A stretch of DNA of 64,000 nt from a virus (IMGVR_UViG_3300031705_000002:1-64000), one strand, 5' to 3'; positions 6,401 to 64,000 are shown, counted from the stretch's first letter. The notes: generated from the sequence alone by a model not told the origin. Made by a program: numbers and translations.

Positions 6401-8363
6401 TTTGTCTTGCAGAAAACTTTGTAATAAGGTTATCAATACCCTTGTCTCCGAATAGTTCAGCTGCTACAGGTATTTGTTTTAAGAACTCACTGTCCATATC
6501 CATTTGAAGCAACGTCACTTTAGGAGTTAGTTCAAAAACCCCATTAACTTTCTGTTGCTCATACTGAACATGTATTGGAACAATCCTAGATTTTCTTATC
6601 TTTGATATTCCATACTTACGCATTAAGATGTCTTTGTATGCACTAATCTGCATATTATACCCATCCATCTTTGGTCCAAAAGGACTAGATATTAGTTTAG
6701 TGCTTGCCCCATACCCAACTACGGCGTTATCTCTAGAACTAGGAGTCGTAAACTTGTAATCATATATGTCAGCGCTGTTGTCAGAGTATAGTATTACTAA
6801 ATCTGCTGTACCAGCTGTGTCTTCATGTACAATACCTTTCTTACCGTCCGGGTCATATACTACCTGTTCTGTAAACACAATGAATTCACCCTCTTTACCA
6901 GTAGTTTTGTTGATCTCTTCTTGCTGCTTCTTAGCTTGCAGGTATATACGATTAATACCCTTTGCTAAAGTGTTGAATTGAGCCTGAGTTAAGCCAGAGT
7001 CCTTGAATATTGCATCTTTGTCGCCCGTTTTATGCGCGATAAGCTCCATTATTCTTTGGGAAGTGTTATGGTGGTGCGTTCCACCCTCTCTTTTTATCTC
7101 ATTGTCTTTATTCTTGTTAATTTCTGCAGCTTTTTCCTTGCCGCCTACTTTCTTAACAAACTTTGCTTGATTTCTATCAGTAATACGATTCCATATTATC
7201 TTATCCTCATCAAGCATCTTATACCTGTTACTCTGACCTGACTCGTCTCCAATAAGAGACTCTCCATCCTTGGCCATTTTCTCTATTTCCTCATTCGCTA
7301 CTGAAACCTGTTCTATGTTAGCAGTAGTTTTGTTGAACATGTCCACAGTTCTAGCGACTTTTTCTTCATCACTCTTGGGGGCCTCGTCTTCTAGCTCGTA
7401 GAAAGGAACTTGCCCCAGAGTTGCAGTACGCGCATTCTGTATGTTGTTAACCTGTTTGTTTATAAGACTTAAAGCAGCTCTCATATATGGATCTTCACTA
7501 GGTTTCTTGAACATCCCTTTGATGAATCTCAGAACCTTGTCAAACCATCGTTCTGCTCTAGCAGCCTTGGTAGGAAACTCTCCCGTTACTTCGCCGGCTA
7601 CAATTATCTGCGCGATAACCTTACCTACGGCCTCTTCCTTAAGTCTTTCTACGTCGTTGTTGTATACTTCTGAATACTGATCTACTACCTCTTGGTATAA
7701 ATCATAACTTACTATCTCATCCATCATAGACCTATACAAAGGACTATTTTCAGACTTGAGAATCTTTACAAAAAAGTGAGCTGCCTCTTCTGGTAGAGTA
7801 CTTAGACCGGCCTTACCTTCAACTACTTCTACAACCCTGTTAAGCATGTCAGCTTTTGCAACAGCATTCATAGGGTTACCATTCGCATCTAATATTTCAC
7901 TTACAATCTTATAATCTACATTAATAAGCTTAAAGAAGTCCTGCATTTTAAGGTCTAACTCTAGAAGAGGGTTACCTTTTGCCACCATTTGGTACTCAGG
8001 AGGTAGAAAATCTCCTACGCTATTAAATACACCTGCAGCCATTTCTGTTGGTGACTGCATAAACTTATCCCTATTATAATTCTCAACTATCTTATACTCA
8101 TACAAAGTAGATTGACCTAACTGCGTAAAGTTCACTCTATGCAATGTACCCATCTTCTTGTTGTACTCCTTTAACCGTGCAAGTGTGTTCTTAACCTGTG
8201 TGTTAGACAAACCCCTTTTAGGGTTCGCCGGAAGCTTGAGATCTACCTGAGTGTTAGGTATCTTATTATTGTTCTTTGTATATAAAGAGTATGTAGAAAA
8301 ATCACCTATTGCTCCAGATAATTTTTTCCAATCCGGGTGTGATTTATTAGGACAAGTTGCCAT
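3405..8363 (-). CDS. Large virion cargo protein with a degenerate zincin-like domain and a PD-(D/E)XK nuclease domain
   Basis: EEAAHFF (7776-7790) plus later KEEAVG; GTHHH...AGTADLVI...IYDYKF...QISAY (core about 6750-6815); hydrophobic C-terminal segments; last gene after the virion RNAP, as in crAss-like genomes. Confidence 0.75.
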   Translation of the reverse strand: MATCPNKSHPDWKKLSGAIGDFSTYSLYTKNNNKIPNTQVDLKLPANPKRGLSNTQVKNTLARLKEYNKKMGTLHRVNFTQLGQSTLYEYKIVENYNRDKFMQSPTEMAAGVFNSVGDFLPPEYQMVAKGNPLLELDLKMQDFFKLINVDYKIVSEILDANGNPMNAVAKADMLNRVVEVVEGKAGLSTLPEEAAHFFVKILKSENSPLYRSMMDEIVSYDLYQEVVDQYSEVYNNDVERLKEEAVGKVIAQIIVAGEVTGEFPTKAARAERWFDKVLRFIKGMFKKPSEDPYMRAALSLINKQVNNIQNARTATLGQVPFYELEDEAPKSDEEKVARTVDMFNKTTANIEQVSVANEEIEKMAKDGESLIGDESGQSNRYKMLDEDKIIWNRITDRNQAKFVKKVGGKEKAAEINKNKDNEIKREGGTHHHNTSQRIMELIAHKTGDKDAIFKDSGLTQAQFNTLAKGINRIYLQAKKQQEEINKTTGKEGEFIVFTEQVVYDPDGKKGIVHEDTAGTADLVILYSDNSADIYDYKFTTPSSRDNAVVGYGASTKLISSPFGPKMDGYNMQISAYKDILMRKYGISKIRKSRIVPIHVQYEQQKVNGVFELTPKVTLLQMDMDSEFLKQIPVAAELFGDKGIDNLITKFSARQKKLEAKLKKVNGEKWSTINAEIMSLQNAIQDLQLSGGVGNILADVRNKMILIKRKLEHKQPLLDDGSLNPDYMEIEEITDLLESFSLYRTMALETGEYFKDVLANSTDTERRRLKEVMDKYAGPIERTYGLLRDENAARTLEMGNAAGIQNNTRSVKELGFFKKLFNTASEFSHPIFQTAWSLIDKAQEKTRKAQATLEKNIIEKQDKVTAWAKSNNMSTMDAYSMMINPETGNLWGKHSEVYYKRLEQAQKDNDIVWLKDNFQAKEGYKVKFEQWKKREFARIEERNADYYEWDAATNKDVLIKDKAQQREQMRNAWLATHDLSRNSAWSSKKAWYHLELNPEKEATYYSEEYSKIHKEAPLKEFFEFYEKTNREFADMTGMSIKSNFVANIQEDLIDSLGSGTHSLTMDTTLEGLKISQDQGEHGIRNPVTGVLEPSIPLLYQNTITDGTKTKDLGRALYLMGKTAHNYANKAEIEAPILALGNFIIDNPALTEDLKGNVVREATGKLGNKLYSKDTQELFEQLYLNYYVYGQKIQSTDKDIGGYSMNKMILSAKQYFGAKVLAIAIVPGTAAYLAAKANAYFEGAKGLHYTNKQLNKTHVLLARQTDVYRAVVDDFQIWQDDVTHRRANDLSASKLTKYVTMDKLYYPYRKADEMIDNNILVAMMQNYGVDANGMPKKLDLLPEGSKSMFELAQESLQEGGTLSYGALSEQGYRKFRGIAQYVAGSIKGQVSDQDINAVQTTLIGNVMMQFKNWMPRMVRERVGPFRYNHRADTYEMGRYGVIAGEAFQIEEGIMNTVKSALVSGVKLSAEVVTFGVGYNMKPNEELAKKLLKQFKENNPDDPKIQELTYNEFLTMRSRQIRAAAAELRGILMLAAGLLILGFKGDDEERFYTKYWVTRKLYSALSRTAMELGFLLNPNDLTTFMKGTVPMASLFTDALKALGNTQDEVVDAISGRKDSRDKTPWGYYSLPFLPGYKQVSRWIEVYDQDKTNPYR

Positions 8364-21784: not shown

Positions 21785-24001
21785 TTAGTAATCAGTAATT
21801 TTAAATTGTTGTGATCTGTATTGACTTAACGCTTCATTAAACTCCTCATGTCTAGGATGAGACTCGTCGTTAGATATACTCCTCAATTCTCTAGGATCTC
21901 CTAACTTCATCAATCTCCCTACGCCGCCTAAGATAAGGTTTTCTACTTGAATAGTACCAAGTTGAACACTACTTACTGTTTTTTCTTGCTCAGCTGTTAA
22001 ATTCCAGTCTGCAACATCGAAGTCAGCGGGGTTAGATTGTAAAGCTTTCCCCATATCAGGGTTCATACGTCGTACATATCCCATACCTATAGCTTCTATT
22101 TTTTTAGTGTGATATTCACCTAAAGTTATATCCCCTGCAGCTGCTTCGTTATACGCATTTACATTACCTCTCCATATGTCCATTCCCATAGCGTCTGCTA
22201 TATTTGACATAAGTCCTAATCCACCTCCGTTATCTCCTTTAGCGATGGCTCTATAAGGTTTCCCTTTTATTTTTAAAACCATAGATGCTGGAGTACCAGC
22301 AAATATATCCGGAAGTACTAGTCCTCCAAATATAAAGTCAGGATTTTCTGTTCCTATAGCTGTTTGTAAGGCTGCAAGTTCCTTACTACTCATGGCTTCT
22401 CCGTCTGCTCCTATAATATTAAACTGGTCTACGGACATTGCCTTCAAGTTGTTATTGACTGCGGTATTCCCTTTAGTTCCGTTATGGTTAAATACTATTA
22501 GGTCATTAGTTTTTATAGGAGTTTTTTCATATGCCTCATAAAAATCATCCCCATTTGCTACATCCTTGTACGCACCATTTCCTTTCATAAAGTCATAATA
22601 CTGACCTGCTAGTGTGCTAAGCTGTGCTCTATCTGTGTCATTAAAATCTGTCCCAAAGTTTGAATTTATAGCTTCTATATTAGAGAATTGACTTTTCATC
22701 ATTTTTCGTTCTCCTTCTTCTGATAAGAATAACTTCCTAACGTTAGCAAAAGCACGTTTAGATACAGGTCTGTGTGTAGTAGATTCTCCTGCAGAGTTTT
22801 CTTGAACCGCCCCAAGTAAATCATTACTTCTATCCATCCCCCACGCACTTTTAGTAGTCTCCATTAAGAGGTTTTCTAATAGTTGGAACTTACTGTTTTT
22901 ACCTTTCCATAAATCTTCCCTAGCTTTAATATTTGCATCGTGGTCTCCCCCTTGCATTGTAAGCTTAATAATCTTGTTCCGTTTTACTTCAGCAGCATTC
23001 ATTTCTAATAATATAGATTGCTTTTTGTCCGGATCTGTTTCACCTCTATACGATTCTATAAGTTTCCCATAAGATGCGTTCTGTACCTCTATAGGATCTA
23101 AGTTTTCATCTATCACAGTTTGTCCGGGAACTGCCATACTATTTCCCATAGGAGTAGCAGGACCCTCTCCAACAGGAGCTGTCATGTACGAAGGAATCAT
23201 ACCTACTTGTTTACTTGCGATAGCTTTCATACTCTCCACAATAGCAACCTTTGCTTCCTCCTCTGTGTAACCTCCAAGCTCAGTCAAAGAGCGTAACTCT
23301 TGACGGCCTTCATCTGTTCCATATATATACGAATCCACTAAGTCGATTGCAGTATTATCTGCCTTTCCTTGGCTTACACCTGTCCAACGTTCCAGTAACC
23401 CTAAGATTTTACTAGGTTCTAGAGGGGACCCATTCTTAGATATACCTTTTAATACACTTTGTTTTTGAGCTGTATAATCAAGTTGGATTTGTGAATCAGG
23501 TCTATACACATTAGATACCATGTTACCATCTGCGTCTTCTGCATATGATTGATGATTGTCAAACTTATGCCCAACAACATTACCTTGGTCGTCATATAAA
23601 GCATTGAAATCTAGTACATGTGACACACCTTTTTCCAACCGTAGTTTAGCAATATCTTCTTGCTCTTTCTTACGTACCTGATAAGACTCTTGCGCTAATT
23701 GTACACCTTTATTAGAAACTAATCCGGTAGTAGCAGCATCTATAGTAACGCCAGAATTCTCCCAATCACCTGAATTAGCATGTTTTGCTAGCTGGTTTGA
23801 GATTTCATTCTTTGCGTTATTCAAAAGGTATTGATCTCCATCACCTACCTGCATAGCTCCCATAGCCTGCTCTAGTAGTGTCTTCTTCTCTAATCCTTTA
23901 TCATATCTCTCTCGTAAGATCTTAGCTACGTTTACAGACTGATCATCAACGTATTGACTCTGCATTGATCTTAAATTACTTCTAGTATATTTACTTGCCA
24001 T
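21785..24001 (-). CDS. Putative ejected cargo / internal virion protein (738 aa)
   Basis: Long ORF between the first cargo gene and the RNAP; helical N-terminus. Function inferred from gene order only. Confidence 0.6.
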   Translation of the reverse strand: MASKYTRSNLRSMQSQYVDDQSVNVAKILRERYDKGLEKKTLLEQAMGAMQVGDGDQYLLNNAKNEISNQLAKHANSGDWENSGVTIDAATTGLVSNKGVQLAQESYQVRKKEQEDIAKLRLEKGVSHVLDFNALYDDQGNVVGHKFDNHQSYAEDADGNMVSNVYRPDSQIQLDYTAQKQSVLKGISKNGSPLEPSKILGLLERWTGVSQGKADNTAIDLVDSYIYGTDEGRQELRSLTELGGYTEEEAKVAIVESMKAIASKQVGMIPSYMTAPVGEGPATPMGNSMAVPGQTVIDENLDPIEVQNASYGKLIESYRGETDPDKKQSILLEMNAAEVKRNKIIKLTMQGGDHDANIKAREDLWKGKNSKFQLLENLLMETTKSAWGMDRSNDLLGAVQENSAGESTTHRPVSKRAFANVRKLFLSEEGERKMMKSQFSNIEAINSNFGTDFNDTDRAQLSTLAGQYYDFMKGNGAYKDVANGDDFYEAYEKTPIKTNDLIVFNHNGTKGNTAVNNNLKAMSVDQFNIIGADGEAMSSKELAALQTAIGTENPDFIFGGLVLPDIFAGTPASMVLKIKGKPYRAIAKGDNGGGLGLMSNIADAMGMDIWRGNVNAYNEAAAGDITLGEYHTKKIEAIGMGYVRRMNPDMGKALQSNPADFDVADWNLTAEQEKTVSSVQLGTIQVENLILGGVGRLMKLGDPRELRSISNDESHPRHEEFNEALSQYRSQQFKITDY

Positions 24002-24011
24002 AGTTTCTTTT

Positions 24012-24536
24012 TTATGCTTCTACCCCGTAGATAGGGTAACCTCCTCCACTTATATGCCCACTAGGATACATATTATACGCATCTTCTGAGGAGTCATTAA
24101 ATTCTAAATGAAAATGTGCGCCCTTTTTGTTGCCACGCTCATCTATAAGCTCTGCGTTATTATCCTTTAAGTACTTTAATCCTTTTGCAGAAATCTTCGT
24201 TCCTTTTGTATCCCAATCATCAAAGAAAAACTTCATCATTGCTTTACCATCTGTGCTTTTTACTCCAAAATCTACAGCGTTACCTGATGCGTGTAACGAA
24301 CCTGAGTCTCCGTCGCGAGTAGCACTTGTTATAGTGTACCCATCAGAACCAAAATCTCCAGAAGAAAGTAACGAATTTAGGTTATATAAACCATGTTGAG
24401 CGTTACCTCCTAAAGCTGTGTTTTTAGCGTTACGTACAGTTATAGGAACATTTTTATTCTTGTATGTATCTATACCAAATGTTGACCAATCTGAATCAAC
24501 CTCCTCCTGGTCTGGAGTAGGTGTGATTACTTTCCC
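24012..24536 (-). CDS. Peptidase M15 (Hedgehog/DD-peptidase fold) domain, predicted -1 frameshift extension (172 aa) of the 1108-aa cargo protein
   Basis: Frame is open from 24536 to the stop at 24012. It translates VITPTPDQEEV...YTITSATRDGDSGSLHASGNAVDFG...GAHFHLEF. No ATG/GTG/TTG occurs before 24239, which lies downstream of the S-x-H-xx-G-x-A-x-D motif. Confidence 0.8.
   Translation of the reverse strand, partial: GKVITPTPDQEEVDSDWSTFGIDTYKNKNVPITVRNAKNTALGGNAQHGLYNLNSLLSSGDFGSDGYTITSATRDGDSGSLHASGNAVDFGVKSTDGKAMMKFFFDDWDTKGTKISAKGLKYLKDNNAELIDERGNKKGAHFHLEFNDSSEDAYNMYPSGHISGGGYPIYGVEA
24499..24536 (-). promoter_or_regulatory. Programmed -1 ribosomal frameshift signal
   Basis: In-frame heptamer G_GGA_AAG (24530-24536) immediately before TAA, 7-nt spacer, then hairpin ACCUACUCC-AGACCA-GGAGGAGGU (24499-24522). 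Confidence 0.7.
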
Positions 24537-27500
24537 CTAGGGGTACCTTTTTGATTGGTATCCTTCTGACCCATCTCTGCGTTCAACTCTATGCTCCACT
24601 CTTCAAGCTTTTTCAAGGCATCTAAATCACCTGTTCTAGCAGCTGTTACAAGATTCTCATAGTCTTCTTTCCCGTACTTTTCACGCATTAGAACACCACT
24701 TCCACCATCAATAGCAGCAGAAAGTCTATCTGATGCATTTTGAAGTTTTCTATCTCTATTCATAACACCAAGATTCTCAGCACCTACTTGCATTGCATCA
24801 ACTAGTGCATCCTCTGAAGCACTCTTACTTGCCAAGTTAGTATCATCAATCATCATTTGATTAGATACATCTTGCATATCTCCTTGAGCGTTGAACTTAG
24901 CAGCTTCAAATATTGCCTTAGCATTTTGATTATCAATACCTCTATTCATTTCGTTTTCAGCACTACCTATATCAGCATTAGCATCTAATTTCTTAGAGTA
25001 CGCAGCCATTTGATCAGATAAACTTCCACCTTGCGTCTGAACAAAATTAACTACCTTTTGGTAATCTCTCTCATTCTGTGCTCTTTCTTTGTCCATATTC
25101 CCGTACTTCAACTTCTCAGGAGTAACCTCTGGAGCTGTTCCAGGTAACTTTACTCTATCTACGTTCTTAGCGTTTTTATACGCCTGAGCTACAGGAATCA
25201 TACTAGCTAATCCTACTGCATTGTCCATAGTAAGACCTTTCTTTAAACGACTTAACTGCTGATCCCACGTAAGTTTATTACTTTCGTTTTTAGCGTTTGT
25301 AGTTATATCTTCAGTTGCCTTATTAGTAGCTACAGATTCCTCTGCAGGAGAATTAAATACACTCTCAGGGTTGGTAGGTAATGTAATCTCATTATCAGAA
25401 TTACCTGGACCTGGAGGCGAAGAAAGTACAGTATCTCCCCAATCAGCGTTTGCTCCTGCATCGTACCCATAGCTGTCTATAAAGTACTGACGTCTTTGTG
25501 CTCCTGTCATACCAGACAACGCACCACCAGTTGAATACTTATTTCTAACGCTTCCTCCGTTTTTCATAAATAATTTCTTAGGATCTCTTCCAGCTTGTTT
25601 CTCTTGTGTAACCGCTAGACTTATTTTCTCCTCATCAGTTCCACCATTCGCTAGTATCTTCTCATGTTGTTGAGCATAAGATGATCCGCCGTTCTTTAAG
25701 TGCGACGAAAAGATATAAGGTTTACCTAAGATCTCCTCTTCAGTTTCCTGATCCTCTACGTTAGTTCGAGAATTCTTATCTATACCACCTTCTTCGTGTG
25801 TCGCTCCTATGTACTTTTTAGCCCCGGAAGGTAAATCAACGACTTCTCCACCTGGAAGAGGTCTACCTCCAGTAGCCATTTCATTTCCTTGGTATCCGTA
25901 TTTACCTTTGAAAATATTACTGAAAAAGTTTCCAATACCACTCTTAGTGTTTCCAAACTTTTCCATTCTACGTGCATCTCTACTAGACATTATATCTTGA
26001 GTACCTTTAGAATTAAACTTAGAATCAGGATTGTTTTGTGATACTCTCTCAGAAGTATTATTTTTCATCTCATTCTGCCTGGTCTTAAATAAATCTCTCC
26101 TATAATTATTATTATTTATACGATTCTTTCTGTAATCAGAACGCTCTCTCCCTGAAGCACTGTAGTTAGGATCCGTGTACTTTCCATTAAGCATGTTCGC
26201 ACCGCTTAATCCCATACGCGATTCCATAGAGTCTACACCTGTGGTTGCGCCATCCATAAATAGCTTTTCACCATTCGCATCGTACTGCTCACCTTCCCAA
26301 ACATTGGAATCAGGTGTTATTCTATTCCCACCATAAAGACTAGTATTCCAATTGTTGCGGGTACCGTCTGCATTTGCCCCCATTGATTGGTTAATAGCTC
26401 CTGTATTTTTGTTTACACCCCTATTAAACTGTTCATACGCTATTTGAGTAGGTCCTCCTGTTTCGTAGTGGCCTCTCCCTCCTGTCCGAGCTTCGTACTT
26501 CTTTATGTTAGATGAAAAATCTTGCCCAAAGTTTATACCCGATTGCATTCTCTTTTGAGAATCAATAAGGTCTGACTTGTTGGCTAGTGTATTTGTTTTC
26601 GTTTCAAGCTTCCCCTGCGCCATTTTTTTAGCAGACTTGATTTCATTTCTTTCTTTCCACTTCATAGCAACATCTTTGATCCCTCCAATATAGTCACCTG
26701 TCGCAACAGCTGTTCCTACATCACCAGCAACTTCCCACCACTTATACGTACCAGCATCTTGATCACTGATCAATCTATCTGACACCATATCTATAGGGTT
26801 TGGCTCTGTAGCTCCAACTAGTTCTAGTCCTTTGTCAAGACCTGTACTAAGCATTTGATTCTTACGCGAGATTTCAGCTTCTTTTGCAGAGCTGTCTGGA
26901 CCGTCTTCTAATAGTTGTTTTTTCTGCGCGTCTAAATCTTGAGAATCACCAGGAGTGTATAAACTATTCTGTATTGTGTTACTCCTTGTATTGTACGAGC
27001 CTCCAACAGCTTGTCCGCTGCTATACCCTTGTGGTATATCATTATCGTAAAGATCAGACTCATCTCCTAAAGTAGAGTCATCTACTCCTGCATTTTGGTA
27101 GTATTTCATACCTCCGTTTCTGTAGGTATCCATCCCTCCAGTACGCTTTTCAGATATATTTACTGCAGTTCTTTTTCCTTCCCCGTTTTTAGATCCCCAA
27201 TATGTACCTATATTCCTAGGGGTAGAGTATCCTGCACCTGAAGTTTTTGCAAACTGTGAAGCTTTATCTGCCGCACTCATATCATCTGACACTGCATTAT
27301 TAAAGTTGTATTGATCTATAAATAGTGTATCAGTTGTTCCCGGCGGTATGAATATGCTAGCTCTTCCGTACGTAGTTTTAGCATTATAGTCCTCACTGCT
27401 CATGGTTTTCTTAAACATATCCCACGTATTTCCAGACGTTGGATCTACATCAGCAGTAGGAGTTTGGTACTCCGTACCGTCATCATTTAAATGTGTTTTG

Positions 27501-27853
27501 TAATCTGCGTATTTTATATTTCTTCTACCATCTTCAGTGGCAGTCCGAGTAGCTCTTCTAAGTGCTTCTAGCTCTCCAGAATCCAAATCATGTTCTGTCC
27601 TAGGAAATGCTTTACTTATAGAGTTTGGCACAGCCACATCCTCAGCAAGGCTTCTAACATTTAAAGGGATTGAATTGTACAGGGCTGTAACAGGATTAAG
27701 TTTACTTGCAAGGTTAGATGCCGGTCCCATTATACTATTTTTAAGCTTGAAGGATTCGTAGGCTTCCTTACTTTTAGGTCCCCAGTTTCCATCTGCTTCT
27801 ATTTTATATCCCTGTTCTTTTAATAAAGTCTGTAATTGTGTTATTTTGTCCAT
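24527..27853 (-). CDS. Ejected cargo protein with N-terminal peptidoglycan-binding domain (1108 aa)
   Basis: N-terminus QLQTLLKEQGYKIEADGNWGPKSKEA fits PG_binding_1; GATHEEGGI motif; repeated (T/N)GG motifs; first gene after the muzzle. Confidence 0.7.
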   Translation of the reverse strand: MDKITQLQTLLKEQGYKIEADGNWGPKSKEAYESFKLKNSIMGPASNLASKLNPVTALYNSIPLNVRSLAEDVAVPNSISKAFPRTEHDLDSGELEALRRATRTATEDGRRNIKYADYKTHLNDDGTEYQTPTADVDPTSGNTWDMFKKTMSSEDYNAKTTYGRASIFIPPGTTDTLFIDQYNFNNAVSDDMSAADKASQFAKTSGAGYSTPRNIGTYWGSKNGEGKRTAVNISEKRTGGMDTYRNGGMKYYQNAGVDDSTLGDESDLYDNDIPQGYSSGQAVGGSYNTRSNTIQNSLYTPGDSQDLDAQKKQLLEDGPDSSAKEAEISRKNQMLSTGLDKGLELVGATEPNPIDMVSDRLISDQDAGTYKWWEVAGDVGTAVATGDYIGGIKDVAMKWKERNEIKSAKKMAQGKLETKTNTLANKSDLIDSQKRMQSGINFGQDFSSNIKKYEARTGGRGHYETGGPTQIAYEQFNRGVNKNTGAINQSMGANADGTRNNWNTSLYGGNRITPDSNVWEGEQYDANGEKLFMDGATTGVDSMESRMGLSGANMLNGKYTDPNYSASGRERSDYRKNRINNNNYRRDLFKTRQNEMKNNTSERVSQNNPDSKFNSKGTQDIMSSRDARRMEKFGNTKSGIGNFFSNIFKGKYGYQGNEMATGGRPLPGGEVVDLPSGAKKYIGATHEEGGIDKNSRTNVEDQETEEEILGKPYIFSSHLKNGGSSYAQQHEKILANGGTDEEKISLAVTQEKQAGRDPKKLFMKNGGSVRNKYSTGGALSGMTGAQRRQYFIDSYGYDAGANADWGDTVLSSPPGPGNSDNEITLPTNPESVFNSPAEESVATNKATEDITTNAKNESNKLTWDQQLSRLKKGLTMDNAVGLASMIPVAQAYKNAKNVDRVKLPGTAPEVTPEKLKYGNMDKERAQNERDYQKVVNFVQTQGGSLSDQMAAYSKKLDANADIGSAENEMNRGIDNQNAKAIFEAAKFNAQGDMQDVSNQMMIDDTNLASKSASEDALVDAMQVGAENLGVMNRDRKLQNASDRLSAAIDGGSGVLMREKYGKEDYENLVTAARTGDLDALKKLEEWSIELNAEMGQKDTNQKGTPRGK

Positions 27854-39014: not shown

Positions 39015-40166
39015 CTACACATTAGTTTGTAAATATCCTTCGTATCCTCGTTGTTTGTTCCATATATGTGCCTGACCTGTTCTTTTAGCCTCATACCCCA
39101 TCATCTTATGCCAATCATCATTCTTGCATATAGAAGGTATGAACCTAACTTTAATCCCTCTGTACTCATTTACCATTTCTTTGTGTACATGGCCACAGTG
39201 CGCTTCTCTTGAGGTCGTACGAGCAAACATAACAGGTTGCTCAGTAGCCATTATTAATGGCATGTCAGCTGCCTTAACTTTGTCTCCGTGTGTAAACATA
39301 ATCATGTTGATCCCGTACTCGTAGTACTTACGGTGCTCAAATGAATTATCTATTAACACTTGACCATCATTTGTGAAGTACGCATTTAAGTACTCACCGG
39401 CGTAGAACATACGTTCATAGTCGTGATTCCCCTGTATAACTACTACGTCAACTGGAGCATATTGAGATAGATACTGGATTGCTCTTACGATTAATGCGCA
39501 GTATCCTACAAATGTTTCTTTCCAATCTGCTGAATCAAATTGAGGTGTACCCTTAGTGGTAGCCCTACTTAACCCTTCAGAATTCATACCATCATTACCT
39601 ATTGGTAAGAGTATTTTTTCAATATCTAAACCTTTAGATTTAATCATAAGGTCCTCAATCACATTCATATACTCTTCCTCAGCTTGTTTTAAAGTTTGAC
39701 CTGTATACTTTCCATAGTGAATATCAGGCAAAGATACCTCGTATGTAACGGGATCTTTTGCTTTGCTAGGTTCTACTCTTGCACGTATCGGGCTGTGGTT
39801 CTTAAGGATCTCAATGATTTCAGCCTTAGTGTTATCTATGACTTCATCTTCCCCCTTAACGACAACAGAGAATCTTTTTTCTCCTCCCATATTCTGCCAG
39901 AATTTAACTGACTGAATATCATTCTTATCTATATCGTTCTCTTGTACGAATCTATCAAAATCATTTAACTCGCTTTGGTCTATGTTTATGTTAGCGTTTG
40001 AGAGGACCATACTAGTAAAGCCTCCCATTGCTTCTATCCGCGCTTCCTTCAATGCTTCTTTACAAAGGTCTACATCGCATTCTAATTTTAAAGCTAATCT
40101 CCCTGAGCCCTCTTTAAGGTATCCAGGCTTGAGATGTAAAAACTCTTTAATTTCAGACTTCGTCAT
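39015..40166 (-). CDS. Calcineurin-like metallophosphoesterase, copy A
   Basis: DIHYG, GND, GNHD, THGD and GHVH metal-binding motifs. Confidence 0.85.
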   Translation of the reverse strand: MTKSEIKEFLHLKPGYLKEGSGRLALKLECDVDLCKEALKEARIEAMGGFTSMVLSNANINIDQSELNDFDRFVQENDIDKNDIQSVKFWQNMGGEKRFSVVVKGEDEVIDNTKAEIIEILKNHSPIRARVEPSKAKDPVTYEVSLPDIHYGKYTGQTLKQAEEEYMNVIEDLMIKSKGLDIEKILLPIGNDGMNSEGLSRATTKGTPQFDSADWKETFVGYCALIVRAIQYLSQYAPVDVVVIQGNHDYERMFYAGEYLNAYFTNDGQVLIDNSFEHRKYYEYGINMIMFTHGDKVKAADMPLIMATEQPVMFARTTSREAHCGHVHKEMVNEYRGIKVRFIPSICKNDDWHKMMGYEAKRTGQAHIWNKQRGYEGYLQTNV

Positions 40167-45232: not shown

Positions 45233-46411
45233 CTAGTCTAAATTTACTTGTAAGTGCCCTTCACACCCTTTACTTTTATTCCATATATACGCCTGAGCTT
45301 CTCTCATGGCCCCGTAACCCATCACCTTATGCCAAGTATCGTTAGGGCAAATACTAGGCAGGAACCTTACTTTAATCCCTCCTGTGTACGTGTTAACAAT
45401 CTCTCTATGTTGATGTCCACAGTGTATCTCTCTATATTTACATTTAGCAAATTTTACAGGTTGCTCTGTAGCCATTATTATAGGCATGACTGCAGGTTTT
45501 TCTTTGTCTCCGTGGGTAAACATTATAAGGTTTGTTCCGTACACATAGTACTTCCTAGACTCATAACTATTATCCACTTCTACTACTGTAGAATCTCTAT
45601 ACCAAGATTCAATAACTTCACCTATGTAGAACATACGTTCGAAGTCATGATTACCTTGTATTACTATAACGTCTACTGGTGCGAATGCTGCTAAATAATC
45701 TATAGCTAACACTAACAACTTCCAATATCCTCTAAAGGTCTCCTGCCATTCCTCAGAATCATGCTGAGGAGTTCCCTTAGTTGTTGCTCGGCTGTACCCT
45801 TCAGAGTTTAAACCATCATTACCAATAGGAAGGATAAACCTTTCTATGTTAAGTCCAGTTGCTTTTCGATGTAACTCCTTAATAGTATTAAGGTATATTC
45901 GATTAGCTTTCTCTTGGGATACTCCCGTTATCTTACCATAATGAAAATCAGGTAAAGATATTTCGTATGCTACTGGATCCCCTATCTTAAAATCATAGGC
46001 TGGATCTGGATGCTCGGGTACGTATTCCTGCATCTCTTTAAAGAACTCTTCTTTAAACTCAATTAAGTTTGCTGCCTGCGGTTTAGTTACCACAGAGAAC
46101 CTAGAGTCTCCCTTAACTGTTTGCCAGTGTTTAACCGACGTTACCTCTTTTTGATTTATACCTTTTTCCTTCAGGTGTATATCTAGTTCGGGAAGGTACG
46201 CATTCTCAGCTGAACTGTAGTCTTTCGTGTCATTTTCATTAGAGTTTTTATCTGACTCCTGCCCTGACCACTTAAATCCTCCTGCGGAATTCCTAGCTCC
46301 TAATAATACTTTTCTTATACTACTGTCGTTTACTCCCGACTCTCGCATAGCTTCCATGATTGTTGCGTACTCCCCTACAATATTGCCTTGGCTATCAATT
46401 TGTAAAATCAT
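45233..46411 (-). CDS. Calcineurin-like metallophosphoesterase, copy B, with N-terminal NUMOD1 (IENR1) DNA-binding domain
   Basis: DFHYG, GND, GNHD, THGD, GHQH. N-terminus ILQID..GNIVGEY.TI.EA....G...SSI..VL.G..NSAGGFKW is NUMOD1-like. Confidence 0.85.
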   Translation of the reverse strand: MILQIDSQGNIVGEYATIMEAMRESGVNDSSIRKVLLGARNSAGGFKWSGQESDKNSNENDTKDYSSAENAYLPELDIHLKEKGINQKEVTSVKHWQTVKGDSRFSVVTKPQAANLIEFKEEFFKEMQEYVPEHPDPAYDFKIGDPVAYEISLPDFHYGKITGVSQEKANRIYLNTIKELHRKATGLNIERFILPIGNDGLNSEGYSRATTKGTPQHDSEEWQETFRGYWKLLVLAIDYLAAFAPVDVIVIQGNHDFERMFYIGEVIESWYRDSTVVEVDNSYESRKYYVYGTNLIMFTHGDKEKPAVMPIIMATEQPVKFAKCKYREIHCGHQHREIVNTYTGGIKVRFLPSICPNDTWHKVMGYGAMREAQAYIWNKSKGCEGHLQVNLD

Positions 46412-49935: not shown

Positions 49936-50241
49936 TTATGCACTAAACGTTAATAAGTGAGCTCCCCTAGAAACGCTCTGACTGGTGATGTACGGAAGCT
50001 TAAATCTAATTACAGTTCTACCGTCATCGGATGTAAACACTGCATAAGGGCTTCCAATTCTATAAGTCATTACACCGTCTGCAGCTCTTAACCTCCTTGG
50101 TGCGCAGGTAACTTTACAGTTACCTCTAGTCGAAAGAACGTTGGCAGCAAAAACTTTGAATTGCTTCTTATACCTCCCTATTCTTTTAGCGGGTTTTAAG
50201 CCAAGTTGCTTTCCCCCGCCCGATCCATTTCCGTACCCCAT
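49936..50241 (-). CDS. Hypothetical basic protein
   Basis: 101-aa ORF filling the operon with 3-14 nt gaps. Confidence 0.55.
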   Translation of the reverse strand: MGYGNGSGGGKQLGLKPAKRIGRYKKQFKVFAANVLSTRGNCKVTCAPRRLRAADGVMTYRIGSPYAVFTSDDGRTVIRFKLPYITSQSVSRGAHLLTFSA

Positions 50242-60740: not shown

Positions 60741-63700
60741 TTATAATTTTACAAATTTACAAATATTTTCTATATTTTCTTTGATTTTAAAGAACTTTTT
60801 CGCATATTCAAGCGCGATAGGTGTTTTTATATTCACAGCCTTTAACTGTTCTGAGGTATACAGTCTGAATAAGATACTCCCGAGAGTGCCTGCCCAAACC
60901 ATCTCCCCTAACCTACGTACGTAAGGTCCCGAATAAGACTCCCCAGAAGCTGAGTAGTATACTCCTCCCAAGGTAAATAACTTAGAAGTTAGTGTGAAGT
61001 TTAAGGAATCTCTTGGGAGAGGTTCTTCGACATACTCCCCGCAGTCTACTTCATATTCCACGCCAGAATCTAGGATTATCTGATTAATCGTCTCATCGGA
61101 GGCTCCGCCCCCTATAAAGCACCCCTCCGATGTAAGAACACCCGAAAGACATGCATCGTCACTAAGTACGTACTGGTAACCCCCACCCGCACATTCTTGG
61201 CCTTCAGTGTCATACAAAGGGTATTCATCGTTATATAGTACAGGGCTCTCTGTAGCTCCCTCCTCAAAGTATTCAAGGTATTCCTCTAAGTATAGGGCGT
61301 CTCCGCAATCTGTAGGTGAGACAACTTCACATATCTCTATTATATGTGTAGGGACTACACAGCCTTCTTCCCCTAAAAATATACAGTGTCTCCAGTCATA
61401 TATAGATGCATCAGGGTTGTAATTAAGAGCCTCTATATCCATACACCCTACAAGTGAGGTGGTATCTATAGCCTCTATGTACTCTACAATTTCCGTAAAA
61501 ATAGGAGTAAAAAGATCCACAGTAGATACATATGTTTTTAAGTCTAATAAGTCTGCAAACACCTTCATGGGAGCGAAGGTTCCTGCGCCTGAATCCAGAA
61601 CCTCCTCAATAATAGCTATCTGAGAAGGGCTATAGGCCTGCCTAGTTCCTGAATATATTACATTGTCTAGGGTCTTATACCCCTCTCCGTACCCGTAAGA
61701 CCTAACACCAGTACCAAGACTGTAATTCATAGGATCCGCTAGTGTATTGAATGTATAGGTGTACCCGTTAAACGTCATTCCGTGTAGATACAACTCCGTA
61801 CTTTCTCCCTTAAGATAGCTCTTATAGCTATCTATATCTAAGTCTACTATTTTATAAGGATTGTAGTATTCAGAGTACATTTCAGTGCTTCCCGTAATAA
61901 CTCTATTTAACATCGTCCCTGCACTTCGACGTGAATAGTCCATAGGCATTACATCAGGGTACGAGTATATATCCGAGATGTCTACGTATGTACCCCCTCC
62001 TACCGCAAAAGTTTGGTACGTAAGGGTTTGACCTAAGGCAAGCTCGTAGGGCAACTTACTCTCAGGCCCTGCTATACCATAATAACCAAAAGTAGGTAAA
62101 TGCCCATTATATGTGCTGAAAGCCGCAACATTCCCTTTAAAATATTTTGTAGCCAGAAGTGAGTTAAACACAAGTAAATTCCTCAAAGTTTGACTGTGTT
62201 CATTTACGGCGCCGTCAAAGACGCTCCTCATAACTCTTGCGTAAAGCTCTTGAGCCTCCCCAATAACGTATCCTACAAAATCACCATCAATATCTCTGTA
62301 CGTTTGGGGGGTATGTAGACAGGGACAAAACTCTGCATTGTATAAATCATCTGTAGGAGTATTGTCAGGATAAGGAGGGTAGGCAGTGTTAGCCCAATTA
62401 CCGTTAACTTCCCAAAACTCATCGTATATATCTGTAGGGGCACCGTCCCCGTCCAACTTACAGAAGGACGCCCTTGTAATAAAATCTATAGGAGAAATCC
62501 GCGTATAATTAGTGGCAGTAGTAGTAGTTATTACTATATTAGAAAAAACCCCTCCAGACGTTGAATCAATAGTTAGGTCAAAGTTTTCGGGGGATGTACT
62601 CCACGGAGATATAGTAATGCTTGCTCCGACACTCCCGTTATCTACAATAGTACTCCCAAACATACCTCCCTCGTGGTGCAGGTTTACATAACCTCCCCCA
62701 AATTGCGAAGAAAGGGTTACAGTAAAGCTTATAGATTCAAACCTCCCCTCTATGGGGATAATTATAGGCGAACCCCCCATAGTAGTTACACTTCCAGTGG
62801 TCTCATTTATATATATAGAGCCATCCATAGATGTATGTATCTTAGCAAAAATTGGAGTGTAACTTCCCGTAACACCCGAAGTTACATCTTCGTAGTGAGA
62901 CTTATTAACAACAAATTTAGGGAACCCTTCCTCCGTGACAGCAGTGTCAGACAAGTGCCCTCCCCAAGGGGCCCCGTGATCTACTGCTGCGGTAGAATAT
63001 TTAACCTGTAATTTTAGGGCTGAAATCTCCTCGGACGAGAGGTCGAAAGGAGAGCCTGCTATAGTTTCAGGTATTATTTTTATAGTTACCCCATCTTCCA
63101 CAACAGTATCATACCCTAAAGTAGGTTTGTTAGGGGAAGAGTGCATGTCCTTTAGGTGCCTAAACAGCCCACTTAAATACTGACTATCTGTAGTACTTAA
63201 GCCTCCAGCACTTTCTGCAGTAAACGTAAATATAGGCTTATATGAATCTACAAGCCCTCCCTCAAAAGAATGCTTCAAAGCGAAGGTATGCCCAAGCTCA
63301 TGTGTAAGTATACTCACAAAAGTGTTAAACTTAAACTCAGAAAAAGCACCTATAGGGGTAGCCATCATAAGCTCCCCGTGCCCCATAAAAGAGTTATTAC
63401 TCGAGTAACGCGACGTAGGCATAGAGGCTCTACCTGAAAAGTCAACTCTACGGCCAAACTTCCCTGAGGGACCCGACAACACTATTATATTTAAAAAAGG
63501 ATAGCCAGCTTTCCCCGTGTTTTTGTAATATTGGTAAGCTTCGTTTTCAGAGTAATCAGCTAAGCGCCCATAACGGACATTAATATCCCCGATATTAAAT
63601 CTAGGGGTTTCGCTAAGAGTTTGGTGCCTATACTTAGCGGACAGTCCTGGGGCCCCAAAACCTTCTAAGGTAGAGGCAGCAAGCATTTCAGACCCTTTCA

Positions 63701-64000
63701 ATTTACTCTGGTCTTGAATAAATATAGCCCCCTCAGGTCCGCAATCTATAAATCCTCCTAAATCTGCTATATGTCTAAGCCGTACTAAGTTTATGTATTC
63801 TGGGGTTAACTCCAAAGCAGCCCCCACGCCCCCTGGATCTCCCACCCACTCGCTCTCAAAGGTAGATGAAAATATAAGAAACTCCTCCTCTGCTGCCTCT
63901 CGCTGAGCAAGTGCTTCGTCACTTATAGTGTTTAGGGTGTCAGATGCTGTGTATGAAAAATAAGGGGAATCAGAGTCTGCCGCAACTTTAAAATCCACTA
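60741..64000 (-). CDS. Large protein with M43 (pappalysin/ulilysin)-like zinc metalloprotease domain, probably 5'-truncated by the window
   Basis: LTHELGHTFALKHSF (63264-63302), FLNI, DPMNYS Met-turn-like and YSPSQ motifs; the frame remains open at the window edge. Confidence 0.7.
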   Translation of the reverse strand, partial: VDFKVAADSDSPYFSYTASDTLNTISDEALAQREAAEEEFLIFSSTFESEWVGDPGGVGAALELTPEYINLVRLRHIADLGGFIDCGPEGAIFIQDQSKLKGSEMLAASTLEGFGAPGLSAKYRHQTLSETPRFNIGDINVRYGRLADYSENEAYQYYKNTGKAGYPFLNIIVLSGPSGKFGRRVDFSGRASMPTSRYSSNNSFMGHGELMMATPIGAFSEFKFNTFVSILTHELGHTFALKHSFEGGLVDSYKPIFTFTAESAGGLSTTDSQYLSGLFRHLKDMHSSPNKPTLGYDTVVEDGVTIKIIPETIAGSPFDLSSEEISALKLQVKYSTAAVDHGAPWGGHLSDTAVTEEGFPKFVVNKSHYEDVTSGVTGSYTPIFAKIHTSMDGSIYINETTGSVTTMGGSPIIIPIEGRFESISFTVTLSSQFGGGYVNLHHEGGMFGSTIVDNGSVGASITISPWSTSPENFDLTIDSTSGGVFSNIVITTTTATNYTRISPIDFITRASFCKLDGDGAPTDIYDEFWEVNGNWANTAYPPYPDNTPTDDLYNAEFCPCLHTPQTYRDIDGDFVGYVIGEAQELYARVMRSVFDGAVNEHSQTLRNLLVFNSLLATKYFKGNVAAFSTYNGHLPTFGYYGIAGPESKLPYELALGQTLTYQTFAVGGGTYVDISDIYSYPDVMPMDYSRRSAGTMLNRVITGSTEMYSEYYNPYKIVDLDIDSYKSYLKGESTELYLHGMTFNGYTYTFNTLADPMNYSLGTGVRSYGYGEGYKTLDNVIYSGTRQAYSPSQIAIIEEVLDSGAGTFAPMKVFADLLDLKTYVSTVDLFTPIFTEIVEYIEAIDTTSLVGCMDIEALNYNPDASIYDWRHCIFLGEEGCVVPTHIIEICEVVSPTDCGDALYLEEYLEYFEEGATESPVLYNDEYPLYDTEGQECAGGGYQYVLSDDACLSGVLTSEGCFIGGGASDETINQIILDSGVEYEVDCGEYVEEPLPRDSLNFTLTSKLFTLGGVYYSASGESYSGPYVRRLGEMVWAGTLGSILFRLYTSEQLKAVNIKTPIALEYAKKFFKIKENIENICKFVKL

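What the first reader, a model, noticed from the sequence alone, without database searches (positions are those of the whole stretch)
24012..24543. Hidden programmed -1 frameshift adds a cell-wall peptidase to an ejected virion cargo protein
Seen in sequence: the 1108-aa gene ends ...CCT AGG GGA AAG TAA, placing the heptamer G_GGA_AAG in frame right before the stop. The -1 frame has a TAG immediately 5' of the heptamer (24537-24539), then stays open for 172 codons. It encodes a complete M15-type zinc peptidase (TSATR, SLHASGNAVD at 24270-24299, HFH at 24108-24116). Its first possible start (24239) lies after the His/Asp ligands, so independent initiation would give a dead fragment. The overlap window for a shift is only the two heptamer codons. 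A hairpin (ACCUACUCC/GGAGGAGGU, extendable) begins 7 nt downstream, and a CCCCTAGGGG palindrome overlaps the site. This is the only late-block gap over 20 nt in the ORF track. Established: GGGAAAG is the lambda gpG/gpGT slippery site. Inference: the gene makes a major 1108-aa form and a minor 1280-aa form carrying a muralytic domain, so only a few copies of the ejected protein are armed. I know of no described frameshift in crAss-like cargo genes.
Basis: partly seen in the sequence, partly recalled or inferred. Interest (0 to 1): 0.92.

Follow-up and report, generated by a model that had tools for sequence, protein, structure and literature searches.

The report
Frameshift adds wall peptidase to cargo
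In a marine crAss-like phage, a cell-wall-cutting enzyme domain with no usable start codon lies one base out of frame behind a classic slippery sequence at the end of a large virion gene, and related phages keep this layout or encode the two parts as one protein, so ribosomes most likely slip back one base to make an enzyme-carrying long form.

Summary
The 1108-aa gene (24527-27853, minus strand) ends G_GGA_AAG TAA. The -1 frame opens at the heptamer and runs 174 codons. Its first ATG/GTG/TTG lies after the predicted zinc ligands.

Main evidence:
- Two independent Tara assemblies (66-72% identical extension) have the same in-frame heptamer followed by a stop, and the same open -1 frame.
- Six protein clusters of this clade end in (A/R)GK plus 0-1 residue.
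- At least four more distant relatives encode both parts as one ORF of 1015-1155 aa.
- The 30 linker codons before the relatives' called start evolve as coding sequence, and the window has GTA (Val) where relatives have GTG/ATG.
- The extension is a divergent M15/LAS peptidase. Pfam does not hit it directly. Motifs, hhalign to a Peptidase_M15_3 member (98%) and LAS-only top fold matches support the assignment.

Weak points: "cargo protein" rests on synteny with crAss001 (the gene follows the muzzle gene). The hairpin or pseudoknot is only suggestive. The "minor form" ratio is untested. Reads could not be checked.

Best reading: a conserved programmed -1 frameshift (about 0.8). I found no paper describing it, though this scan has flagged the same device in several other crAss-like genomes. 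It is a new member of a known kind.

The parts
24527..27853 (-). 0-frame gene, 1108 aa. It sits directly behind the muzzle gene, at the cargo-protein-1 position. Its N-terminus resembles a peptidoglycan-binding domain.
   Evidence: ORF. The upstream 3020-aa ORF matches Pfam crAss_MUZ at 6e-43. crAss001 gene order is gp44 muzzle then gp45 cargo C1. N-terminus: PG_binding_3 at E 0.04 in the window, PG_binding_1 at 1e-5 in the L010 homologue, and PF01471 precomputed on P0049-51.
24530..24536 (-). Slippery heptamer G_GGA_AAG on the last two sense codons (Gly-Lys)
   Evidence: It is identical and in frame in L009 and L010. The first G is kept although its codon changes from AGG (Arg) to GCG (Ala).
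24527..24529 (-). 0-frame stop TAA directly 3' of the heptamer
   Evidence: L009 has TAG and L010 has TAA at the same place. P0048 and P0051 have one more residue before the stop.
24537..24539 (-). TAG in the -1 frame directly 5' of the heptamer. It limits the overlap of the two frames to the heptamer.
   Evidence: In L009 and L010 a TAA lies 6 and 1 codons before the heptamer in the -1 frame. TAG is an ordinary stop for 5 of 30 genes here.
24494..24528 (-). Predicted hairpin starting 1 nt after the heptamer (13 pairs, one bulge, one 1x1 loop, 6-nt loop)
   Evidence: -13.9 kcal/mol, z -1.96. Hairpins at the homologous place: L009 -10.8 kcal/mol (z -0.86), L010 -13.4 kcal/mol (z -3.77).
24484..24512 (-). 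Candidate pseudoknot stem 2: loop GACCA (24508-24512) pairs with UGGUC (24484-24488)
   Evidence: All 6 columns pair in all three genomes (C-G to U-G, A-U to G-U). The duplex is stronger than in 96-99.6% of shuffles. The bases also encode the conserved D-Q and D-W-S, so RNA and protein constraints cannot be separated.
24438..24530 (-). -1-frame linker (Val3 to Thr33 of the extension) with no start codon
   Evidence: One in-frame 3-nt indel against the relatives. pS exceeds pN in all pairs; dN/dS 0.17-0.55.
24435..24437 (-). GTA (Val) codon at the position where relatives have GTG (L009) or ATG (L010), the start chosen there by gene callers
24015..24437 (-). Divergent M15/LAS-type zinc peptidase domain. 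Motifs: TSATR (Arg 24315-24317), S-x-H-x2-G-x-A-x-D (24270-24299), H-x-H (24108-24116).
   Evidence: The motif residues are invariant in 12 homologues. hhalign to P0034, a Pfam Peptidase_M15_3 member, gives 98.1%, E 1e-13. AF2 model pLDDT 77. The top 11 VIA matches all have the LAS/hedgehog fold, Z 4.1-6.3. BFVD matches are dominated by Peptidase M15/M15A.
24012..24014 (-). Stop TAA of the -1-frame extension. The next gene (738 aa, 21785-24001) starts 10 nt later.

Best explanation
This is a programmed -1 ribosomal frameshift.

Mechanism (inferred):
- Ribosomes translating the 1108-aa gene reach G_GGA_AAG on its last two codons.
- tRNA-Gly and tRNA-Lys re-pair on GGG_AAA. Alternatively, tRNA-Lys alone slips while the adjacent stop codon waits in the A site.
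- Translation continues in the -1 frame with GTA (Val).
- The result is a 1280-aa protein: the whole 1108-aa protein, a roughly 30-residue linker and a C-terminal M15/LAS zinc peptidase.
- Ribosomes that do not slip terminate at TAA and make the 1108-aa form.
- The adjacent stop and a downstream hairpin, possibly a pseudoknot, are the likely stimulators.

Shown here: the sequence anatomy, its conservation in relatives, in-frame fusions in more distant relatives, coding-type evolution of the start-less linker, and the peptidase-like nature of the domain.

Inferred: the slip itself, its efficiency, virion incorporation and ejection of the protein, and cell-wall cleavage during infection.
For: 1. 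Anatomy: an in-frame X_XXY_YYZ heptamer, an adjacent stop, a -1 frame open for 174 codons from the heptamer, and no start before the catalytic motifs.
2. L009 and L010 come from different Tara samples and share 72% and 69% protein identity in the extension. Both have the same heptamer, a stop and an open -1 frame at the homologous junction. Flanking codons differ, but the wobble G that completes the heptamer is kept.
3. Six 90%-identity protein clusters of the clade end in (A/R)GK plus 0-1 residue.
4. The trans-frame products align colinearly with single ORFs of 1015 and 1155 aa (L001, L012). P0007 (1092 aa) and P0011 (1151 aa) also carry both parts in one frame.
5. The linker has pS > pN in all three pairs (dN/dS 0.17-0.55) and an in-frame 3-nt indel. 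The domain has dN/dS 0.13-0.19, so it is not a pseudogene.
6. The window has GTA where relatives have GTG/ATG. GTG to GTA is synonymous if the codon is read as an internal Val.
7. A hairpin is predicted at the same place in all three genomes. In the proposed two-stem structure, 93% of cells pair, against 22-47% when the partners are slid.
8. G_GGA_AAG is listed as highly shift-prone in E. coli and is a g-t shift site (PMC5009743).
9. Neither a terminator-like site on either strand nor a sigma-70-type promoter match on the coding strand lies between the two reading frames.
Against: - There is no direct evidence of the trans-frame protein.
- Read support could not be checked.
- Only three DNA sequences of the frameshift clade were available, so the heptamer is seen in three genomes and the RNA structure has a single compensatory pair. 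Shuffle controls for that structure are not significant.
- Hairpin z-scores are modest: -0.86 to -3.77.
- Relatives carry a canonical start codon 35-40 codons into the -1 frame, which could give a free-standing enzyme there.
- The host's tRNA-Lys repertoire and its slippage propensity at AAG are unknown.
Confidence: 0.8

Rival explanations
1. The peptidase is made as a separate small protein by independent initiation inside the -1 ORF. Relatives would use the GTG/ATG. The window would use a non-canonical codon such as GTA, ATC or ATA. On this view the heptamer is a coincidence.
For: Gene callers annotate complete genes of 141-147 aa in relatives (P0003-P0005). L009 has GTG and L010 has ATG at the same codon. 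L010 has a TAnnTTTG-like octamer upstream of that ATG (read; not conserved). Some distant family members are short stand-alone proteins, for example P0021 at 183 aa.
Against: - The window has GTA at that codon. Its first ATG/GTG/TTG gives a fragment lacking Arg74, His82 and Asp89.
- No near-cognate start is conserved in the linker.
- The 30 upstream codons evolve as coding sequence in this frame.
- The frame opens within 0-6 codons of a conserved heptamer in all three genomes.
- In in-frame fusions the homologous residue is a variable T/F/L.
Confidence: 0.08
2. The gene is a fusion broken by a 1-nt deletion. It is either a decaying pseudogene domain or an assembly or sequencing error in a G/A run, and the domain is not expressed.
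For: In-frame fusions are the state in more distant relatives. The break lies in a short homopolymer-rich stretch (GGGGAAAG). Reads could not be examined.
Against: - The same frame structure occurs in three independent assemblies whose synonymous sites are near saturation.
- The domain is under purifying selection (dN/dS 0.13-0.19) with all motif residues intact.
- The break point coincides with a canonical slippery heptamer in every case.
Confidence: 0.03
3. The two ORFs are linked by another recoding or coupling route. Candidates are termination-reinitiation at the stop, transcriptional slippage in the G4A3 run, or TAG reassignment that lets a longer overlapping -1 ORF start upstream (GTG at 24599).
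For: The stop codon abuts the site. With TAG read as Gln, the -1 frame opens 22 codons further upstream and begins near a GTG. crAss-like phages with TAG reassignment exist (bioRxiv 10.64898/2026.08.21.746148).
Against: - TAG ends 5 of 30 tightly packed genes in this window, and all giant ORFs are intact under table 11.
- The relatives have TAA, not TAG, in the -1 frame just before the heptamer.
- No start codon lies near the stop for reinitiation.
- By established knowledge, runs of 3-4 identical bases are far shorter than the 8 or more typical of transcriptional slippage.
Confidence: 0.05

Closest known systems
Phage lambda G/GT tail-assembly-chaperone -1 frameshift, and the conserved g-t frameshifts of tailed phages and archaeal viruses
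   Same: The slippery heptamer G_GGA_AAG is identical. One gene gives a short and a C-terminally extended product. The extension ORF has no start of its own. Gene callers routinely miss the device (PMC5009743; Levin et al. 1993 and Xu et al. 2004 from own knowledge).
   Different: The proteins are unrelated: here a virion-module gene behind the crAss muzzle gene rather than a chaperone upstream of a tape measure. The site lies on the very last two codons with an abutting stop. The extension is an enzyme domain. Frameshift efficiency is unknown here.
Accessory C-terminal Ig-like domains added to phage structural proteins by programmed frameshifts (T3 gene 10, Lactobacillus phage A2, Listeria phages A118/A500/PSA; Fraser et al. 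2006 as reviewed in PMC5009743)
   Same: A mobile accessory domain is in frame in some phages and out of frame in others, where it is expressed through a frameshift. This is the pattern seen here between L001/L012/P0007/P0011 and the window/L009/L010.
   Different: The domain here is a catalytic M15/LAS peptidase rather than an Ig-like binding domain. The carrier is predicted to be an internal, ejected protein rather than a surface capsid or tail protein.
Virion-associated peptidoglycan hydrolase domains on ejected internal proteins of podoviruses, such as the T7 gp16 lytic transglycosylase domain (own knowledge; T7 ejection proteins are discussed in PMC10172136)
   Same: A muralytic module is carried on a large internal virion protein presumed to leave the capsid ahead of the DNA. 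A peptidoglycan-binding-like N-terminus on the same protein fits a wall-directed role.
   Different: T7's domain is an in-frame, N-terminal transglycosylase present on every copy. Here it is a C-terminal peptidase reached only by recoding.
crAss001 gp45, cargo protein C1 (Pfam crAss_CARG1, PF25725)
   Same: The gene position is the same: IHF-like, ring, muzzle, then this gene, then a second mid-sized gene and the giant RNAP-type genes. A distant M15-domain relative (P0042) has a sub-threshold crAss_CARG1 match.
   Different: No significant sequence similarity was found: Pfam gives nothing at E<=5, and hhalign of the family profile against gp45 gives probability 0.7%. The crAss001 paper contains no occurrence of 'peptidase' or 'peptidoglycan'.
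Peptidase_M15_3 (PF08291) and LAS enzymes (VanX/VanY, MepA, Ply500, Streptomyces DD-peptidase, Hedgehog N-domain fold)
   Same: The Arg, S-x-H-x2-G-x-A-x-D and H-x-H motifs are present. There is an hhalign link to a PF08291 member. All top fold matches have this fold.
   Different: The domain is too divergent for a direct Pfam or PHROG hit. It belongs to a small family of 36 clusters among 1.84 billion representatives, found almost only as a terminal module of very large phage proteins.

Membership tests
Programmed -1 ribosomal frameshift site (X_XXY_YYZ type) | Heptamer X_XXY_YYZ in the 0 frame inside the overlap of the two ORFs | tested here: met
   G_GGA_AAG lies at 24530-24536 in the correct phase. 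The overlap is bounded by the -1-frame TAG and the 0-frame TAA.
Programmed -1 ribosomal frameshift site (X_XXY_YYZ type) | The downstream ORF is in the -1 frame, is coding, and has no initiation codon of its own that would give a functional product | tested here: met
   174 open codons. The first start, at 24239, falls after the Arg/His/Asp motifs. Linker dN/dS is 0.17-0.55 and domain dN/dS 0.13-0.19.
Programmed -1 ribosomal frameshift site (X_XXY_YYZ type) | The site and the frame arrangement are conserved in diverged relatives | tested here: met
   L009 and L010 have the identical heptamer plus a stop. Six protein clusters end in (A/R)GK(+0/1). Only three DNA sequences were available.
Programmed -1 ribosomal frameshift site (X_XXY_YYZ type) | Some relatives encode the two parts as one in-frame protein | tested here: met
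   L001/P0008, L012/P0009, P0007 and P0011.
Programmed -1 ribosomal frameshift site (X_XXY_YYZ type) | A stimulatory element, such as a 3' hairpin or pseudoknot at 5-9 nt or an adjacent stop | tested here: inconclusive
   An adjacent stop is present in all three genomes. Hairpins are predicted 1-5 nt downstream at -10.8 to -13.9 kcal/mol (z -0.86 to -3.77). There is one compensatory pair, and the shuffle control is not significant with three sequences.
Programmed -1 ribosomal frameshift site (X_XXY_YYZ type) | Detection of the trans-frame protein, or measured shifting | not testable with these tools
   This needs MS of virions or a reporter assay.
Peptidase M15 / LAS zinc peptidases (Pfam Peptidase_M15_3, PF08291) | A match to the family profile above threshold | tested here: not met
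   P0002 has no Pfam hit even at E<=5. The fused homologue P0008 scores E 0.022, below the cut-off. The indirect link is significant: 7 of 26 distant family members hit PF08291 (best 2e-11), and hhalign of A3 against P0034 gives 98.1%, E 1e-13.
Peptidase M15 / LAS zinc peptidases (Pfam Peptidase_M15_3, PF08291) | Zinc-ligand and catalytic motifs H-x(3-6)-D and H-x-H, with the conserved Arg and S-x-H-x2-G-x-A-x-D signature | tested here: met
   R74, S80, H82, G85, A87, D89, H141 and H143 are invariant in 12 homologues. S, R, H, A and D are invariant in 26 distant members.
Peptidase M15 / LAS zinc peptidases (Pfam Peptidase_M15_3, PF08291) | Hedgehog/DD-peptidase fold | tested here: inconclusive
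   AF2 model pLDDT 77. Foldseek against PDB has best E 0.44. The top 11 VIA-align matches are all LAS-fold proteins, but Z is only 4.1-6.3, below the tool's caution level of 8. BFVD matches are dominated by M15/M15A at E 3e-3 to 1.
Peptidase M15 / LAS zinc peptidases (Pfam Peptidase_M15_3, PF08291) | Peptidoglycan peptidase activity | not testable with these tools
   This needs a zymogram or a muropeptide assay.
Crassvirus cargo protein 1 (crAss001 gp45; Pfam crAss_CARG1, PF25725) | Sequence or profile similarity to gp45 or crAss_CARG1 | tested here: not met
   No Pfam hit for P0001 or its homologues at E<=5. hhalign of A6 against gp45 gives probability 0.7%.
Crassvirus cargo protein 1 (crAss001 gp45; Pfam crAss_CARG1, PF25725) | Gene position directly downstream of the muzzle gene in the ring-muzzle-cargo-RNAP block | tested here: met
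   The 3020-aa upstream ORF matches crAss_MUZ at 6e-43. The crAss001 gene order is, and the window's order.
Crassvirus cargo protein 1 (crAss001 gp45; Pfam crAss_CARG1, PF25725) | Presence inside the virion and ejection | not testable with these tools
   This needs virion proteomics or cryo-EM.
Lambda-type G/GT tail assembly chaperone | A pair of small chaperone ORFs directly upstream of a tape-measure gene | tested here: not met
   The carrier is a 1108-aa protein in a crAss-type podovirus-like module, and no tape-measure context is present. It works like G/GT but is not a member.

The most novel reading that the evidence does not exclude
Environmental Crassvirales may use a conserved recoding device, so far undescribed, to set a fixed ratio of unarmed to peptidase-armed copies of their first-ejected cargo protein. 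An RNA pseudoknot would be embedded in, and would constrain, the linker's D-Q...D-W-S codons. The muralytic module would be interchangeable in three ways:
- M15 or CHAP-like.
- Attached to the C-terminus of cargo 1 or to the N-terminus of the next giant protein.
- Joined in frame or through the frameshift.
This would make cargo-protein heterogeneity a regulated feature of crAss-like infection.
Probability: 0.4. Interest if true: 0.7.

Novelty: new member of a known kind. Interest (0 to 1): 0.6.

Why it matters
How crAss-like phages cross the cell wall, and what their ejected cargo proteins do, is still largely unknown. The crAss001 structural paper assigns no enzymatic activity to cargo proteins C1 and C2.

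A conserved frameshift that puts a peptidoglycan peptidase on a fraction of the protein encoded right behind the muzzle gene gives a concrete, testable candidate for the virion-borne wall-opening activity.

There is also an annotation problem. Gene callers either drop the domain or call a truncated 141-147-aa gene, as in P0003-P0005. The mechanism itself is textbook, so the value lies in the new biological context and in correcting annotation across marine Crassvirales.

Tried and rejected
DNA for P0005, P0047-P0051 and the fused P0007/P0011 could not be fetched.

Searches that gave nothing useful:
- GenBank phage collection: no DNA or protein match.
- Pfam and PHROGs directly on the extension, the 1108-aa protein and the 738-aa protein: nothing.
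- A DNA pattern (heptamer, gap, GATTGGTC) in IMG/VR gave 107 matching stretches. None of the fetched loci encoded a relative by tblastn.
- The genome-contig scan found only a marginal Massilia hit.
- The PDB sequence-profile search had its best hit at E 0.3, to Ply500.
- Foldseek against PDB found nothing at E<=0.001.
- hhalign of the cargo family against crAss001 gp45 was not significant.
- Literature searches for a crAss/Crassvirales frameshift found no description.

Ideas rejected:
- TAG reassignment. TAG ends 5 of 30 genes in the window, and the relatives have TAA at the homologous place.
- The CCCCTAGGGG palindrome as a functional element. It is not conserved.
- An SD-like upstream stimulator was considered but not pursued, because spacing differs among the three genomes.
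Full report
**1. The observation**

The minus-strand ORF 24527..27853 encodes 1108 aa and ends ...CCT AGG GGA AAG TAA.
- In the -1 frame a TAG (24537-24539) is followed by GGG AAA GTA and 174 sense codons, down to TAA at 24012-24014.
- The first ATG/GTG/TTG of that frame is at 24239.
- The late genes are tightly packed. Every other gap over 20 nt between large ORFs holds an ATG-started ORF of 70-97 aa, so the start-less 24240-24526 stretch is the one anomaly.
- GGGAAAG alone is not unusual: 11 in the window against 7.7 expected. By my frame arithmetic, only two of the nine minus-strand copies are in the G_GGA_AAG phase.

**2. What the phage is**

The window is part of a 94,957-bp IMG/VR virus record rated complete.
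- The 3020-aa ORF directly upstream of the 1108-aa gene matches Pfam crAss_MUZ, the crassvirus muzzle protein, at 6e-43.
- In crAss001 the gene order is IHF-like gp42, ring gp43, muzzle gp44, cargo C1 gp45, cargo C2 gp46, then the giant RNAP-type proteins. The window has the same succession of sizes.
- The 1108-aa gene therefore sits at the cargo-C1 position. Homology to gp45 was not detectable: Pfam gives nothing at E<=5, and hhalign gives probability 0.7%. 'Cargo protein' is thus a synteny-based inference.
- The N-terminus resembles a peptidoglycan-binding domain: PG_binding_3 at E 0.04 in the window, PG_binding_1 at 1e-5 in the L010 homologue, and PF01471 precomputed on three clade members.

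**3. Relatives decide the question**

The extension has few relatives. Their DNA was recovered from IMG/VR and Tara/JGI contigs.

*Same arrangement.* Two Tara contigs from different samples, L009 and L010, have extensions 72% and 69% identical to the window's.
- In both, a homologous large ORF (1076 and 1210 aa) ends GCG GGA AAG TAG or TAA.
- In both, the -1 frame opens 1-6 codons before the heptamer and runs through the domain.
- The codon before Gly differs (AGG Arg against GCG Ala), yet its third base stays G, which preserves the heptamer.
- At the protein level, six 90%-identity clusters of the clade end in (A/R)GK or (A/R)GK plus one residue, although the preceding residues vary.

*In-frame fusions.* In more distant relatives both parts lie in one ORF.
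- These are L001/P0008 (1015 aa), L012/P0009 (1155 aa), P0007 (1092 aa) and P0011 (1151 aa).
- The conceptual trans-frame products of the window, L009 and L010 align colinearly with them across the junction.

*Other arrangements.*
- In a third group (L002-L008, P0012-P0020) the same domain is the N-terminal module of the next, 860-2170-aa protein.
- In L122 the 1104-aa homologue carries a weak CHAP-like C-terminus instead.

The muralytic module is therefore a mobile terminal domain of these large virion-module proteins, and the window's clade reaches it across a frame change.

**4. Is the linker translated?**

From the heptamer to the codon where gene callers start the relatives' 141-147-aa 'gene', the three genomes share D-Q-x-E-V-x-x-D-W-S-x-F/Y...D-x-Y-x-N-x-N-V-P-x-T.
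- Many differences are synonymous.
- There is one in-frame 3-nt indel.
- Nei-Gojobori pS exceeds pN in every pair (0.41/0.27, 0.61/0.19, 0.57/0.27), giving dN/dS 0.17-0.55.
- The domain itself has dN/dS 0.13-0.19.
- At the relatives' called start, L009 has GTG, L010 has ATG and the window has GTA. GTG to GTA is a silent Val change if the codon is internal, but it would destroy a start.
- No near-cognate start is conserved in the linker.

This is hard to reconcile with independent initiation in the window. It does not exclude independent initiation as an additional route in the relatives.

**5. Stimulators**

The 0-frame stop abuts the heptamer in all three genomes. This 'shifty stop' context is named in the review literature (Weiss et al. 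1987, cited in PMC5009743).

A hairpin is predicted at the same place in all three genomes:

| Genome | Free energy (kcal/mol) | z-score |
|---|---|---|
| Window | -13.9 | -1.96 |
| L009 | -10.8 | -0.86 |
| L010 | -13.4 | -3.77 |

- The hairpin loop (GA[C/U]CA[A/G]) can also pair with the conserved UUGGUC 6-10 nt downstream of the stem. This would form an H-type pseudoknot.
- All six columns of that second stem pair in all three genomes, with two wobble substitutions. The duplex beats 96-99.6% of shuffles.
- With three sequences there is only one compensatory pair, and the column-shuffle control is not significant.
- The paired bases also encode the conserved residues.

The structure is therefore plausible but unproven.

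**6. What the extension is**

Direct Pfam, PHROG and PDB sequence searches fail or are marginal. Other evidence supports a divergent M15/LAS zinc peptidase:
- A profile of 12 homologues finds only 36 clusters among 1.84 billion representatives.
- Seven of 26 distant members match Pfam Peptidase_M15_3, best 2e-11. Others carry Phage_lysozyme2, LysM or a sub-threshold crAss_CARG1 match.
- hhalign of the profile against one PF08291-positive member gives 98.1%, E 1e-13, across all motifs.
- Arg74, Ser80, His82, Asp89, His141 and His143 are invariant.
- An AlphaFold model (pLDDT 77) has LAS or hedgehog-fold proteins as its top 11 VIA-align matches: ShhN, MepA, VldE, LdcB, VanY, VanXY, VanX, Ply500 and the Streptomyces DD-peptidase. 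Z is only 4.1-6.3.
- BFVD matches are dominated by 'Peptidase M15/M15A'.

I read it as a divergent M15/LAS zinc peptidase. Activity is untested.

**7. Alternatives**

- *Assembly error or pseudogene.* Three independent assemblies share the frame structure, and the domain is under purifying selection.
- *TAG reassignment.* TAG ends 5 of 30 genes here, and the relatives have TAA at that place.
- *Independent transcription unit.* No terminator-like site, and no sigma-70-type promoter match on the coding strand, lies between the frames. This scan does not cover Bacteroidota-type promoters.
- *Transcriptional slippage.* It is unlikely for such short runs (established knowledge).

**8. Comparison and novelty**

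The device works like lambda G/GT, with the same heptamer.
- It resembles even more closely the accessory Ig-like domains of phage structural proteins. Those are in frame in some phages and reached by frameshift in others (PMC5009743).
- It is not a member of the G/GT family.
- I found no paper describing a frameshift in Crassvirales virion or cargo genes. The held part of the 2016 recoding review contains no occurrence of peptidoglycan, endolysin or muralytic.
- Earlier unchecked notes of this same scan report the same kind of device in several other crAss-like genomes. I did not test those. They suggest the phenomenon is widespread.

**Verdict**

It is a new member of a known kind of recoding, of moderate to good interest. 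The claims about a minor form and about ejection remain inference.

Noticed in passing
L122:1895-5209 (IMGVR_UViG_3300020469_002640): A 1104-aa homologue of the 1108-aa protein has no M15 domain. Instead it has a weak CHAP-domain match (E 0.028, residues 979-1073) at its in-frame C-terminus, and the next gene follows 25 nt later. This suggests the C-terminal muralytic module is interchangeable.
   Followed up: partly
L002-L008, around position 8000 in each: In a more distant group of contigs the same M15-like domain is the N-terminal module of an ORF of roughly 1850 to more than 2080 aa (two run off their contig) that follows the preceding ORF closely (about 925 aa in L003/L004, with a TAATG overlap). 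Across lineages the domain therefore sits on either side of this gene boundary.
   Followed up: partly
window 24484-24512 (-); L009 and L010 8028-8056: The loop of the post-heptamer hairpin is complementary to the conserved UUGGUC downstream in all three genomes, which makes a candidate H-type pseudoknot. The bases involved encode the clade-specific D-Q and D-W-S, residues that the in-frame-fusion relatives do not conserve.
   Followed up: partly
window 27740-27853 (-): The N-terminus of the 1108-aa protein looks like a peptidoglycan-binding domain: PG_binding_3 at E 0.04 here, and PG_binding_1 above threshold in the L010, P0049, P0050 and P0051 homologues.
   Followed up: partly
window 50209-50215 (-), in the 101-aa ORF 49936..50241: This is the only other GGGAAAG in the window that lies in the G_GGA_AAG phase of a gene. 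It falls near that gene's 5' end. The -1 frame behind it was not examined.
   Followed up: no
window 39015-40166 and 45233-46411 (-): Two paralogous late genes both match PHROG 704 (DNA repair exonuclease / metallophosphoesterase type) at 1e-50 to 1e-54. This is a duplicated cassette within the virion-gene block.
   Followed up: no
P0048 and P0051 (protein clusters of the clade; DNA not available): Two clade members end ...AGKQ and ...AGKY. Their 0-frame stop therefore lies one codon after the presumed heptamer, so the abutting stop is not universal in the clade.
   Followed up: no
window 60741-63998 (-): The 1085-aa ORF has a sub-threshold Peptidase_M43 match (E 8e-4) around residues 225-250.
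   Followed up: no
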